Assembly (NCBI RefSeq): GCF_009914755.1
Contig: NC_060933.1
Strand: one strand, 5' to 3'
Length of the DNA: 64,000 nt
Origin: the human T2T-CHM13v2.0 reference genome, Homo sapiens
Shown here: positions 56,498-59,104 of the stretch, one piece after another
Position numbering within the stretch: the first letter of the stretch is position 1
Layout of the letters: the number at the start of each line of letters is the position of its first letter
The notes under the pieces: model-generated
Database searches by the model: none
What the model was told of the DNA's origin: nothing
What the model saw: the letters and a program-made list of their open reading frames with translations, nothing else
Translations under genes and position numbers: made by a program

Positions 56498-59104
56498 CAA
56501 GCTTACCTTGTTTTATTGCACTTCACTTTATTATGCTTCTCGGATATTGCATTTTTTACAGGTTGAAGGTTTATGGCAACCCTGCATCAAGCAAGTCTAC
56601 CAGTGCCACTTTTCTGGTAGCATGTGCTTATTTTGTATCTCTGTGTTACATTTTTGTAATTCTTGCAATATTTCAAATGTTTTGTTATTATTATATCTGT
56701 TACGGTAATCTGTGATCAGTGATTATTAATATTACTATTGTCATTGTTTTGGGGCATCACAAACCATGCTCCAAAAGACAATGAGCCTAATTGATACATA
56801 TGTGTGTCTGAATGGTTCCATTGATCTGCCCTTCCTCCATCCCCCCATCTCCTCAGGTCTCCCTGTCTTCTGAGACACAGGAATATTGAAATTAGGCCAA
56901 TTAATAACTCTACAAAGGCCTCTATGTGTTCAAGTGAAAGTAAGAGTCACACATCTCTTATTTATATCAAAAGTGAGAAATGATTAAGGTGAGTGAGGAA
57001 GGCATGTTAAAAGCTGAAACAGGCCAAAAACTAGGCATCCTGCACCTAACAGCCAAACTGTGCATGAAAAGAAAAAGTTCTTGAAGGAAATTAAAAGTAT
57101 TACTCCAATGAACACATGAGTGGTATGAAAGTGAAAGAGACTTATCGCTGATATGGAGAAGGTTTGAGTGGTTTGGATAGAAGATCAAACCAACCACAAC
57201 ATTTCCTTAAGCCAAACCCTAATCGAGAGCAAGGACCTAATTCTTCTTAATTCTCTGAAGGCTGAGAGAGGTTGGGAAGCCACAGAAAAAAAGTTTGAAG
57301 CTAGCAGAGATTGGTTCATGAGGTTTAAGGAAAGAAGTCTTCTCCATAAGATAAAAGTGCAAGGAAAAGCAGCAAGTGCTGATGTAGAAGCTGCAGCAAG
57401 TCATCCATAAGATCAGCTAAGAGAAGCAACAAAGGTGGCTACACTAAACAAGGTTTTTACTGCAGATAAAACAGCCTTATATTGGAAGAGGATGTCATCC
57501 AGGACTTTTACAGCCAGGTAGCAAAATAAATGCCTGACTTCAATGCTTCAAAGAACAGGATGACTCTTTTGTTAGGGGCTTAAGCTGAAGCCAAAGCTCA
57601 TCTACCATTCTGAAAATTCTAGGGCCCTTAAGAACTATGCTACATCTACTCTGCCTGTGCTCTATAAATGGGACAAAGCCTGAATGACATCACATCTGTT
57701 ACGACATGAATATTTTAAGCTCACACCTGAGAACTACTGCTTTAAAAAAAGATCTCTTTCAAAATATTATTGTTCATTGACAATTTACCTGGTCACCCAA
57801 GAGCTCTGATGGAGAACTACAAGAAAATTAAAGCTGTTTGCATGCCTGCTAATACAACATCCATTCTGCAGCCCATGGATCAATGAGTAATTTAGACTTT
57901 CAAGGCTGATTATCTGAGAAATACATTTCATAAGGCTGTAGCCACCATGTATAGTAGTTCCTTCGATAGATCTGGGCAAAGTAAGTTGAAAACCTTCTAG
58001 AAAGGTTTCACCATTCTAGAAGCATTTGCAATTCATGGGAGGAGGTTAAAATTAAGAACATTTGTGATTCATGGGAGGAGGTCAAAATATCAACATTAAA
58101 AGAAATTTGGAAGAAGTTGATTCCAATCCTCATGGATGACTTTGAGGGTTCAAGACTTCAGTGCAAGAAGTAACTGCAGATGTGGTGGAAATAGCAAGAG
58201 AATTAAGATTAAAAGATGTGAAGAGAACTTAAGATGTGGCTGAATTGCTGAAATCTCATGACAAAATTTTAACAAATGAGAACTTGGATGAGCAAAGAAA
58301 GTGGTTTCTTGAGATGGAAACTACTCCAGGTGTAGATGCTGTGAACCTTGTTGAAATGACAACAGAGTATTTAGAAAATTGCATAAACTTAGTGGATAAA
58401 GCAGTGGTAGGGTTTGAGAGGATTGTCTCCGATTTGAAGGAAGCTCTACTGTGGGTAAAATGCTATCAAACAGCATTGCATGCTACAGAGGAATCTTGAA
58501 AGAAATAGTCAACTGATGTAGCAAACTTCATTGTTGTCTTATTTTAAGAAATTGCCACAGCCACCTCACCTCCAGCAGCTTCCACCATGATGAGTCAGCA
58601 GCCACAACACTGAGGCAAGGCCACTGACCAGCAAAAAGATCATGATGTTGAAGACTCAGGTGATCGATAGCATTTTTAAACAGTAAAATAATTTTTGACT
58701 AAGGTATGTACATTGACTTTTTTAGACATAATGGTATTGCCCACTTAATAGACTACAGTATAGTACAGACCTAACTTTTATATGCACTGAGAAACCAAAA
58801 ATTCTGTGTGATTTGCCTTATTGCCATATTTGTTTTATTGCAGAACTGGCCACCAGAATCTTCCCTTCCCCTAGAACGCCCTTCACCCAAGCCACCTGCA
58901 TTTTCCCCTCACCCATCATACCCACCCCCATTGTCTGGCCTGCCCTCCACCTCCTCCAAAAGCCTTCATTGCTCCCCCACTGCTGGACTGCATTCTGACT
59001 CCGTCTCAATGTGACTCAATGGCACTTCCATTGGGCACTGCCCTAAAGAGCTCATCTCCACAGTGGCCTGAAACCAAACCCACAGTATCTCTGAGGTATG
59101 CCTA
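56498..59104 (+). mobile_element. Full-length Tigger1 (TcMar-Tigger DNA transposon), decayed transposase
   Basis: TA|caagcttaccttgttttattg 5' end, ...gaggtatgcct 3' end, transposase remnants ([30 protein letters not shown]), length ~2.4 kb plus the 217-bp insert. Confidence 0.93.
58846..59062 (+). pseudogene. Diverged fragment of SPATA31 exon 4 embedded in Tigger1
   Basis: Aligns by eye to 63761-63976 (about 35 mismatches in ~213 nt, one 1-nt insertion, one 3-nt gap). Translation [22 protein letters not shown] vs exon 4 [22 protein letters not shown]. Confidence 0.92.

What the first reader, a model, noticed from the sequence alone, without database searches (positions are those of the whole stretch)
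58844..59062. A piece of SPATA31 exon 4 sits inside the 3' end of a full-length Tigger1 transposon
Seen: the Tigger1 subterminal sequence (recalled consensus ...ttattgcggtggtctggaacc...gaggtatgcctg) is split as ttattgCAG|aactggccaccagaa...tctcCA|CAGtggcctgaaacc...gaggtatgcct. The ~217-bp interruption is a direct-orientation copy of 63761-63976 at roughly 83% identity by hand count, with no poly(A) and no long TSD, only CAG/CA junction homology. Inference: either a templated repair insertion copied from the gene 4.9 kb downstream after Tigger1 integrated, or gene-fragment capture by an element that still had both TIRs (Pack-TIR-like). The divergence makes it a snapshot of an ancestral exon 4, usable as an in-cis neutral reference for a fast-evolving gene.
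Basis: partly seen in the sequence, partly recalled or inferred. Interest (0 to 1): 0.8.

Follow-up and report, generated by a model that had tools for sequence, protein, structure and literature searches.

The report
SPATA31 exon relic inside a Tigger1
A 220-base patch copied long ago from the neighbouring SPATA31 gene sits inside an old Tigger1 transposon upstream of that gene; it is a real but ordinary scar of DNA-break repair that happens to preserve an older version of a fast-evolving exon.

Summary
A near full-length Tigger1 (window 56498-59104, +) is interrupted 41 bp from its 3' end by 220 extra bases (58844-59063). Of these, 217 are a direct-orientation copy of SPATA31A1 exon 4 (63758-63976): 83% identity, E 6e-57, far above shuffles. 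Ten of 10 other Tigger1 copies are contiguous across the break. The junctions show a 3-bp CAG repeat and a 2-nt AA filler, with no poly(A), no long TSD and no loss of Tigger1 sequence.

The chimera occurs 4 times in the genome. All four are segmental-duplication paralogs, each about 4.92 kb upstream of a SPATA31A exon 4. So there is no sign of mobilisation, and Pack-TIR capture is not supported.

The relic is about three times more diverged from A1 (17.1%) than the A and C loci are from each other (6.2-6.7% in noncoding DNA). It shares 8 states and the lack of a 3-bp insertion with SPATA31E1. It therefore appears to predate the A/C coalescence, although the AU test does not reject nesting.

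Best reading: an ancient repair patch, like a class 2 templated sequence insertion, copied in cis from the ancestral SPATA31 gene or its transcript. No orthologous empty site could be examined. This is a new member of a known kind, of modest interest.

The parts
56498..59104 (+). Near full-length, decayed Tigger1 (pogo-type DNA transposon). It is 2607 bp including the insertion and 2387 bp without it. TA lies at 56496-56497 on the 5' side.
   Evidence: Other Tigger1 copies align from window ~56493-56507 through 58843 at 73-79% identity, and to the 3' end. Pfam HTH_Tnp_Tc5 (57168-57410, E 5e-6) and DDE_1 (57746-57886, E 1.3e-9) are on the + strand.
58844..59063 (+). 220-bp insertion that interrupts Tigger1 41 bp from its 3' terminus.
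   Evidence: It is absent from 10 of 10 other Tigger1 3' ends, which are contiguous across this point. The flanks abut in the copy at C3:146.26 Mb.
58846..59062 (+). Relic of SPATA31 exon 4, in the same orientation as the gene. It is non-coding: one 1-bp insertion shifts the frame.
   Evidence: 83.0% identity over 218 columns, E 6e-57. Shuffle control: 136 against a maximum of 23 in 500. The translation follows the SPATA31A1 protein in frame 0 and then frame 1.
58841..58843 (+). CAG of Tigger1 immediately before the insertion, repeated at 59061-59063. This is a 3-bp junction repeat or microhomology.
   Evidence: Read from the sequence.
58844..58845 (+). AA filler at the 5' junction. Together with the preceding CAG and the following C it reads CAGAAC (58841-58846), which repeats CAGAAT at 58854-58859. 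That internal site reads CAGAAC in all 8 exon copies.
   Evidence: Reading it as a templated filler is inference.
59061..59063 (+). Second copy of CAG at the 3' junction. CA is shared with the exon (..CTCCACA); the G is ambiguous.
59064..59104 (+). Last 41 bp of Tigger1, including the 3' terminal repeat (..GAGGTATGCCTA).
   Evidence: Aligns with the 3' ends of 10 other Tigger1 copies.
63758..63976 (+). Present-day descendant of the template: part of SPATA31A1 exon 4, a proline-rich coding stretch 243 bp into the exon.
   Evidence: The hub annotation gives exon 4 as 63515-67403.

Best explanation
A Tigger1 already resident a few kb upstream of the ancestral primate SPATA31 gene (the CNTNAP3-SPATA31 locus) suffered a double-strand break, or a replication or repair template switch, 41 bp from its 3' end.

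The break was sealed with a ~217-nt patch synthesised from the neighbouring gene's exon 4. I favour the DNA as template. The local transcript is the alternative, and the data cannot separate the two. Joining was end-joining-like: a 2-nt filler that looks like an aborted microhomology-primed start (CAG+AAC), a 1-3 nt microhomology or 3-bp repeat (CAG), and no loss of target.

This happened in the deeper part of the Tigger1's residence. It came before the coalescence of all present SPATA31A and SPATA31C exon 4 copies. A rough guess is an early-primate date, some tens of millions of years ago.

The patch has since decayed as non-coding DNA. It was copied passively four times with the SPATA31A segmental duplications. 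No function is indicated.

Shown: the anatomy, the copy distribution and the relative depth. Inferred: the order of events (Tigger1 first), the cis origin, the kind of template and the absolute age.
For: Junction anatomy:
- The insertion is at a single point with no loss of Tigger1 bases.
- There is a 3-bp CAG repeat and an AA filler, with no poly(A), no AATAAA and no TSD of 5 bp or more.
- The target, GCAG|TGG, is not a TTTT/A L1 site.
- These are the features listed for class 2 templated sequence insertions in PMC5110952 (passages read).
- The junction reads CAGAAC, repeating the CAGAAC found 12 nt inside the template in all 8 exon copies.

Cis origin:
- The only non-Alu match between the gene (window 61100-65498) and the 61 kb upstream of it is this piece.
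- All 4 of 4 A-type genes carry the chimera 4917-4925 bp upstream of the source.
- A mouse deletion table lists Cntnap3 next to Spata31 (PMC8621608, one passage). The hub annotation puts CNTNAP3 just upstream of this window. The A1 locus is therefore likely the ancestral one.

Age:
- The relic differs from A1 at 37 of 216 sites (17.1%), and from the C genes and the two pseudogenes at 17.2-20.8%.
- The eight exon copies differ among themselves by 7% or less. A1 differs from C and the pseudogenes in noncoding DNA by 6.2-6.7%.
- Of the 37 differences between relic and A1, polarising with SPATA31E1 assigns 15 to the relic, 8 to the exon lineage and leaves 14 unpolarised. A 3-bp ATA/TTA insertion is present in all 8 exon copies but absent from the relic and from E1.
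- The ML tree places the relic outside all exon copies.
- This Tigger1 is 73-79% identical to 36 other copies over 1.2 kb, so the element is older than or about as old as the patch.

No mobilisation.
Against: - No orthologous locus from another primate could be searched, so there is no empty-site proof that Tigger1 came first and no direct date.
- The basal placement is not statistically secure. UFBoot is 69. The AU test does not reject the relic grouping with A, with C, or with A plus the 94.21 Mb pseudogene (p-AU 0.23-0.31, delta lnL 0.6-1.1).
- E1 is only about 70% identical, so some of the 'relic = E1' sites may be coincidences.
- The C-type and pseudogene loci share homology with A only from about window 60470-60592 onward and have no Tigger1 upstream. 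That the gene and the Tigger1 were already neighbours at the time therefore rests on the CNTNAP3 synteny argument.
- The relic's branch (about 11-13% raw) is close to my rough per-lineage figure for the Tigger1 itself (about 12-15%, derived from pairwise identities only). An event at or near the time of Tigger1 activity is thus not excluded.
- DNA and RNA templates cannot be separated, because the piece lies within one exon.
Confidence: 0.78

Rival explanations
1. Transposition-linked repair. The patch arose while Tigger1 was still active. After excision, or a transposase-made break, the gap was refilled from the sister copy. The repair synthesis, 41 nt in from the 3' end, switched briefly to the nearby SPATA31 exon and back. 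This is abortive or wandering gap repair, as described for P, Ac/Ds and Tc1/mariner elements (recalled, not read here).
For: - The break lies close to the element end, 41 bp from it, on the gene-facing side.
- The relic's branch length (about 11-13% raw) is not clearly smaller than the Tigger1's own rough divergence, which is inferred from 73-79% pairwise identity.
- The CAGAAC filler suggests repeated microhomology priming during synthesis.
Against: - Nothing ties the break to transposase, and it is not at the cleavage site.
- Abortive gap repair usually deletes internal element sequence. Here none is lost.
- The age comparison has wide errors: 217 sites, with a GC-rich patch set against an AT-rich element.
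Confidence: 0.08
2. Trans-templated patch. The 217 nt came from another SPATA31 paralog, now lost or unsampled, or from its reverse-transcribed mRNA. On this view, proximity to SPATA31A is partly coincidental or reflects a chr9-local duplication history.
For: - The relic is equally distant (17-21%) from every extant copy.
- The AU test leaves its placement open.
- Experimental templated insertions were reported to derive from RNA of distant loci (PMC5110952, passages).
- The piece is wholly exonic.
Against: - Landing about 2 kb upstream of the promoter of the same gene family by chance is very unlikely.
- The own-genome DNA and protein searches found no closer source. The hits were 10 of 10 DNA candidates scored and 18 protein matches, all belonging to A, C, the two pseudogenes, E1 or the relics themselves.
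- D-type paralogs do not even align in this stretch.
Confidence: 0.08
3. Pack-TIR-like capture. A mobile Tigger1 picked up the gene fragment and transposed as a chimera.
For: The gene fragment lies between two recognisable Tigger1 ends of an otherwise complete element.
Against: - 4 of 4 chimeric copies share their flanks: 98.8-99.2% identity over 3.34 kb, including 1.5 kb outside the element.
- No chimeric copy was found elsewhere in 3.1 Gb.
Confidence: 0.03
4. L1-mediated retrocopy of a SPATA31 transcript fragment (a class 1 templated insertion or partial processed pseudogene).
For: The source is exonic, the gene is testis-expressed (abstract of PMC5338094), and L1 sequence lies nearby.
Against: There is no poly(A) tract (longest A run is 4), no AATAAA or ATTAAA, no TSD of 5 bp or more, and the target is not TTTT/A. 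The piece is internal to a 3.9-kb exon rather than 3'-terminal.
Confidence: 0.02

Closest known systems
Class 2 templated sequence insertions (TSI/TSIP; Onozawa & Aplan, PMC5110952)
   Same: A short stretch copied from an intact donor locus fills a break. There is no TSD of 5 bp or more, no poly(A) and no L1 target motif. There is microhomology and a few non-templated or mis-templated bases at the junctions.
   Different: The donor is the neighbouring gene about 4.9 kb away, probably about 3 kb before later L1 and Alu insertions, rather than a distant locus. The insertion is old and is present in all four duplicated copies in this genome, whereas TSIPs were described as polymorphisms. An RNA origin cannot be tested.
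Microhomology-mediated template switching (FoSTeS/MMBIR; polymerase-theta-type templated filler at end joining) - recalled, not read here
   Same: A direct-orientation copy of a template a few kb away in cis. Very short junction homologies. A filler (CAG+AAC) that matches a site just inside the template, as if a first priming attempt had aborted.
   Different: Polymerase-theta fillers are usually much shorter than 217 nt. MMBIR events are usually described in larger, complex rearrangements. Neither pathway can be assigned from sequence alone.
Pack-MULE / Pack-TIR transduplication
   Same: A host gene fragment lies between the terminal repeats of a DNA transposon.
   Different: The element keeps its whole internal region, and the fragment sits at one point near the 3' end. 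There is no evidence that the chimera ever moved: all copies are segmental-duplication paralogs.
NUMT-type and other filler-DNA patches at repaired breaks
   Same: Capture of unrelated DNA at a break, followed by neutral decay, so that the patch becomes a molecular fossil of its source.
   Different: The source is a nuclear neighbouring exon, so the fossil and its living descendant sit side by side in the same mutational environment.

Membership tests
Tigger1 (pogo-like Tc1/mariner DNA transposon) | Both termini and the body are collinear with other genomic Tigger1 copies. | tested here: met
The 5' end aligns from window ~56493-56507 in 30 non-paralogous copies. The body aligns at 73-79% identity over 1.2 kb. 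The 3' end aligns with 10 of 10 copies.
Tigger1 (pogo-like Tc1/mariner DNA transposon) | Pogo-type transposase remnants (CENP-B/Tc5 HTH and DDE_1). | tested here: met
   PF03221 at E 5e-6 and PF03184 at E 1.3e-9, both above their curated cut-offs. 2 of the 5 ORF pieces scanned matched.
Tigger1 (pogo-like Tc1/mariner DNA transposon) | TA target-site duplication. | tested here: inconclusive
   TA is present at 56496-56497. The 3' side reads TG then TA (59105-59108) after a mutated last base.
Class 2 templated sequence insertion (DSB repair patch) | The insert is templated from another locus that remains intact. | tested here: met
   The 217-nt copy and the intact exon 4 are both present.
Class 2 templated sequence insertion (DSB repair patch) | No TSD of 5 bp or more, no poly(A) tract or signal, no TTTT/A target. 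| tested here: met
   There is only a 3-bp CAG repeat. The longest A run is 4. There is no AATAAA or ATTAAA. The target is GCAG|TGG.
Class 2 templated sequence insertion (DSB repair patch) | End-joining marks: microhomology, non-templated bases or microdeletion. | tested here: met
   CAG/CA junction homology and an AA filler; no microdeletion.
Class 2 templated sequence insertion (DSB repair patch) | Donor is distant and RNA-derived. | not testable with these tools
   The donor lies 4.9 kb away in cis, so it is not distant. The piece lies within a single exon, so there is no splice junction to reveal an RNA intermediate.
Pack-TIR / transduplicating DNA transposon | Chimeric copies at different loci with different flanks or TSDs (evidence of mobilisation). 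| tested here: not met
   Only 4 copies exist, and all have the same flanks at 98.8-99.2% identity.
L1-mediated retrocopy | 3' poly(A), 7-20 bp TSD and an endonuclease target site. | tested here: not met
SPATA31 A/C exon 4 lineage (source of the patch) | The relic groups with the A/C lineage rather than with E or D. | tested here: met
   The relic differs from the A, C and pseudogene copies by 17-21% and from E1 by 33%. D-type genes gave no match in this stretch.
SPATA31 A/C exon 4 lineage (source of the patch) | The relic branches before the common ancestor of the extant A and C copies. | tested here: inconclusive
   This is the best ML topology (UFBoot 69). It is supported by the shared absence of the 3-bp insertion, by 8 states shared with E1, and by a roughly 3-fold greater distance. 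The AU test does not reject the alternatives (p 0.23-0.31).

The most novel reading that the evidence does not exclude
The patch is a by-product of Tigger1's own activity. On this reading, wandering gap-repair synthesis after a transposase-made break copied part of the nearest gene into the element. That would make this a frozen first step towards a gene-carrying (Pack-type) Tigger in an early primate. It is a step rarely, if ever, documented for mammalian pogo-like elements. Because the relic is preserved next to its source, the event and the exon's later evolution could both be read from it.
Probability: 0.08. Interest if true: 0.55.

Novelty: new member of a known kind. Interest (0 to 1): 0.3.

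Why it matters
Mostly this is a clean, datable example of a break-repair patch templated from a neighbouring gene. It also shows that a 'gene fragment inside a transposon' need not mean capture by the transposon.

The relic is a non-coding sister of a stretch of SPATA31 exon 4, lying in the same mutational neighbourhood. Read that way, here are the numbers:
- Polarised changes number 15 on the relic against 8 on the exon lineage. My own binomial estimate, not run in a call, is that this is not significantly unequal.
- 5 of the 8 exon-lineage changes are non-synonymous.
- A 3-bp codon insertion arose on the stem leading to all A and C copies.

In addition, exon 4 differs between A and C about as much as the introns do: 4.6-6.7% against 6.2-6.7%. 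All of this fits a gene evolving at close to the neutral rate. With only 217 sites the resolving power is low.

Tried and rejected
- Chance or low-complexity similarity: rejected by the shuffle control.
- Pack-TIR mobilisation: rejected by the copy census and flank identity.
- L1 retrocopy: rejected by the junctions.
- A recent copy from SPATA31A after the A/C split: disfavoured. The relic carries none of the A-specific derived states seen. At column 148 it has T like the C genes and pseudogenes. At column 23 it shares the ancestral C with A and E1. It is also about 3 times more diverged than A is from C. However, the AU test did not formally reject this reading.
- A Tigger1 upstream of the C1, C2 and two pseudogene loci, searched over 20 kb each: none found. 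Homology to the A locus starts only near window 60592, with a weak continuation to about 60470 beyond an Alu. Those loci therefore give no pre-insertion state.
- Eight older chr9 copies of the Tigger1 5' part, which I hoped would hold an uninterrupted 3' end: they stop at window 57029 and lack the 3' part, so they are uninformative.
- Longer junction microhomologies: GTGGC lies 10 nt beyond the end of the copied stretch in A-type exons. Using it would need an extra 10-nt deletion, and the site is GCGGC or GCAGC in the other copies. I treated it as chance.
Only the pairwise identities from the search tables were used.
- Prior description in print: SPATA31+Tigger gave 3 papers. I opened one of the two listed, and it is unrelated. 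The SPATA31 family paper (PMC5338094: outline, section 5 and passages) does not mention Tigger. Its text-readable supplements have no 'Tigger'. Its Additional File 3, which shows the promoter repeats, is an image that could not be read.
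Full report
**1. The observation**

The window is T2T-CHM13 chr9:39308001-39372000 (hub note; confirmed as G000:C9).

Reading 56300-59400 shows a pogo-type element. Its 3' subterminal sequence ...TTTTATTGCAG is followed by 220 foreign bases. The element then resumes with TGGCCTGAAACCAAACCCACAGTATCTCTGAGGTATGCCTA.

The foreign stretch matches SPATA31A1 exon 4:
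- blastn aligns 58849-59062 with 63761-63976 at 83.0% identity over 218 columns, E 6e-57.
- MAFFT and the repeat finder give the same collinear match.
- The local alignment score is 136. Five hundred dinucleotide-preserving shuffles of the insert give 13.8 +/- 2.3, with a maximum of 23.

The other refutation condition also fails. I fetched ten other Tigger1 3' ends from the same genome. In 10 of 10 the two flanks of the insert are adjacent (...TTTATTGCAG|TGGTCTGGAAC...), and the element ends ...GAGGTATGCCTG followed by TA.

**2. The host element**

- Other copies begin to align at window ~56493-56507.
- They run at 73-79% identity through 58843 (36 non-paralogous copies listed) and end at 59104.
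- Without the insert the element is 2387 bp. I recall the consensus as about 2.4 kb; this was not checked.
- Two of five stop-to-stop ORF pieces on the + strand match Pfam above the curated cut-offs: HTH_Tnp_Tc5 (E 5e-6) and DDE_1 (E 1.3e-9).
- The element is a decayed, essentially full-length Tigger1.

**3. Exact anatomy of the insertion**

- The extra sequence is 58844-59063.
- AA (58844-58845) matches neither partner.
- Positions 58846-59062 are homologous to exon 4. The first bases, CTGG, match the E1 paralog's CGGG and a likely CpG ancestor of the A-type CCAG.
- The last three bases, CAG (59061-59063), repeat the CAG just before the insertion (58841-58843). Of these, CA is also the continuation of the exon.
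- No Tigger1 base is missing.
- There is no A run longer than 4, no AATAAA or ATTAAA, and the target is not TTTT/A.
- The junction reads CAGAAC (58841-58846). This is the hexamer found 12 nt further inside the copied stretch: CAGAAT now, and CAGAAC in all eight exon copies. It looks like a first microhomology-primed start that aborted. That reading is inference.
- The relic follows the SPATA31A1 protein in one frame, then shifts after a 1-bp insertion. It is non-coding.

**4. Distribution**

- Whole-genome searches with the chimera and with the insert alone found the chimera four times, all on chr9: 39.367 Mb (this window), 41.249, 43.732 and 78.767 Mb.
- In one search, 10 of 10 candidates were scored: 4 relics, 4 A-type exons and 2 pseudogenes.
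- Each chimera lies 4917-4925 bp upstream of an A-type exon 4 copy.
- The four loci are 98.8-99.2% identical over 3.34 kb, including 1.5 kb outside the element.
- They are therefore paralogs made by the SPATA31A segmental duplications, not products of transposition. This removes the positive evidence that a Pack-TIR reading would need.
- Between the gene (window 61100-65498) and the 61 kb upstream of it, the relic is the only non-Alu match.

**5. Which gene copy was the template?**

A protein search with the exon stretch found:
- four A copies;
- two C copies (100.07 and 100.29 Mb);
- two broken copies (94.21 and 105.05 Mb);
- weakly, E1 (100.04 Mb);
- no D-type match.

Distances:
- The eight A, C and pseudogene copies differ by 2.3-6.9% among themselves.
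- The relic differs from all of them by 17.1-20.8%.
- The relic differs from E1 by 33%.

Polarising the 37 relic-versus-A1 differences with E1:
- 15 changes fall on the relic.
- 8 fall on the exon lineage: 5 non-synonymous and 3 synonymous.
- 14 are unpolarised.

All eight exon copies carry a 3-bp ATA/TTA insertion that both the relic and E1 lack.

The ML tree puts the relic outside all exon copies (UFBoot 69). With 220 columns, however, this is not secure. The AU test leaves the relic grouping with A, with C, or with A plus the 94.21 Mb pseudogene inside the confidence set (p-AU 0.23-0.31; delta lnL 0.6-1.1).

The stronger argument is depth. Noncoding DNA of the A1 locus (promoter and introns, about 2 kb) differs from the C and pseudogene loci by only 6.2-6.7%. 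That is about a third of the relic-A1 distance. For the relic to be younger than the A/C coalescence, it would have to evolve several times faster than neighbouring neutral DNA.

**6. Were the Tigger1 and the gene neighbours at the time?**

- The C-type and pseudogene loci share homology with the A locus only from about window 60592 onward. There is a weak continuation to about 60470 beyond an Alu. No Tigger1 lies within 20 kb upstream of them. They are silent on the question.
- The hub annotation places CNTNAP3 just upstream of this window.
- A mouse deletion table lists '...Cntnap3, Spata31, Eif1-ps2, Prss47...' in order (PMC8621608, one passage).
- The family paper states that the mouse has a single Spata31, that the macaque has one A and one C copy, and that the copies undergo concerted evolution (PMC5338094, section 5).
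- Together these make the CNTNAP3-adjacent A locus the likely ancestral site, with the C type as the derived duplicate. The template was then the ancestor of the gene that still sits downstream. This step is inference.

**7. Age**

- The relic's own branch is about 11-13% raw. The range comes from apportioning the 37 differences by the parsimony ratio or by the ML ratio.
- The A/C noncoding divergence is about 3.2-3.5% per lineage, and macaque already has both types.
- This points to an early-primate event, on the order of 45-80 Myr. The figure is my rough estimate; the rates are recalled.
- The Tigger1's pairwise identity to other copies (73-79%) suggests roughly 12-15% per lineage. The patch therefore entered in the older part of the element's residence.

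**8. Mechanism**

The junction features are those listed for class 2 templated sequence insertions, which are patches that seal a double-strand break by end joining (PMC5110952, passages read):
- no TSD of 5 bp or more;
- no poly(A);
- no L1 target motif;
- microhomology;
- a couple of odd bases at the junction.

Unlike those cases, the donor here is the adjacent gene. That argues for a cis process. It could be either a short-range DNA template switch during repair or replication (FoSTeS/MMBIR or polymerase-theta-like; recalled), or use of the locally produced transcript. The piece lies inside one exon, so the two cannot be told apart.

An L1-mediated retrocopy is contradicted by the junctions. 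A link to Tigger1's own transposition (wandering gap repair) is not excluded, because the break is near the end of the element and the ages are close. Nothing positive supports it, and no element sequence was lost.

**9. Comparison and verdict**

The capture alternative is not supported. The 'ancestral snapshot' idea is supported in direction but rests on few sites.

As a neutral yardstick, the relic suggests the exon has changed at between about half the relic's rate and the same rate (8 against 15 polarised changes). The exon also diverges between A and C about as fast as the introns do. Both are consistent with the reported fast evolution of the family (abstract of PMC5338094).

I found no description of this relic in print:
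- SPATA31+Tigger gave 3 papers. I opened one of the two listed, and it is unrelated.
- The broader SPATA31 search was.
- The image-only supplement of PMC5338094 that shows the promoter repeats could not be read.

This is a new example of a known kind of repair scar. It has no indicated function and is of modest interest.

Noticed in passing
window 55924-57029: Eight further chr9 copies share this stretch at 91-92% identity: at 39.825, 39.886, 40.858, 44.123, 44.276, 78.272, 78.335 and 80.286 Mb. It comprises the 5' flank plus the first ~530 bp of the same Tigger1. All eight stop at window 57029, inside the element. An older duplication family therefore has a boundary, or a deletion, within this Tigger1 and lacks its 3' part and the relic.
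   Followed up: partly
window 60470-60592 and loci L034, L035, L038, L039: Homology between the SPATA31A locus and the C1, C2, 94.21 Mb and 105.05 Mb loci begins at about 60592. In every non-A locus an Alu abuts that point. In C1 and C2 the promoter-exon 1 block (window 60592-61976) is present twice, as Bekpen et al. describe. This looks like an Alu-associated duplication boundary.
   Followed up: partly
window 59247-60560: An L1 5'-UTR-like sequence starts near 59247. An L1 3' end at 59993-60518 is 84-88% identical to many genomic L1 3' ends (35 copies listed) and has an A-rich tail to about 60560. Together they span only about 1.3 kb, so this is either an internally deleted L1 or two fragments. 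They probably correspond to the L1P3 and L1PA10 pieces reported in the SPATA31A promoter.
   Followed up: partly
window 58023-58088: A 36-bp tandem duplication inside the Tigger1 body: two 30-nt cores, 90% alike.
   Followed up: no
window 63515-63976 versus 60592-63514: Exon 4 differs between A1 and the C and pseudogene copies by 3.7-6.7%. This is about the same as promoter and intron DNA (6.2-6.7%), so this part of the coding exon shows no visible excess constraint.
   Followed up: partly
window 62506-62576: Three tandem 18-bp units (TCTTGTCTC...GTCA) run into the start of exon 2 (62573) and overlap the alternative exon start at 62536.
   Followed up: no
L022 / L026 (C9:94.21 Mb) and L021 (C9:105.05 Mb): Two SPATA31 exon 4 copies have short open frames (157-179 aa at the match), so they are broken genes. 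The 94.21 Mb copy is slightly nearer to A (3.7%) than to C (5.0-6.9%).
   Followed up: no
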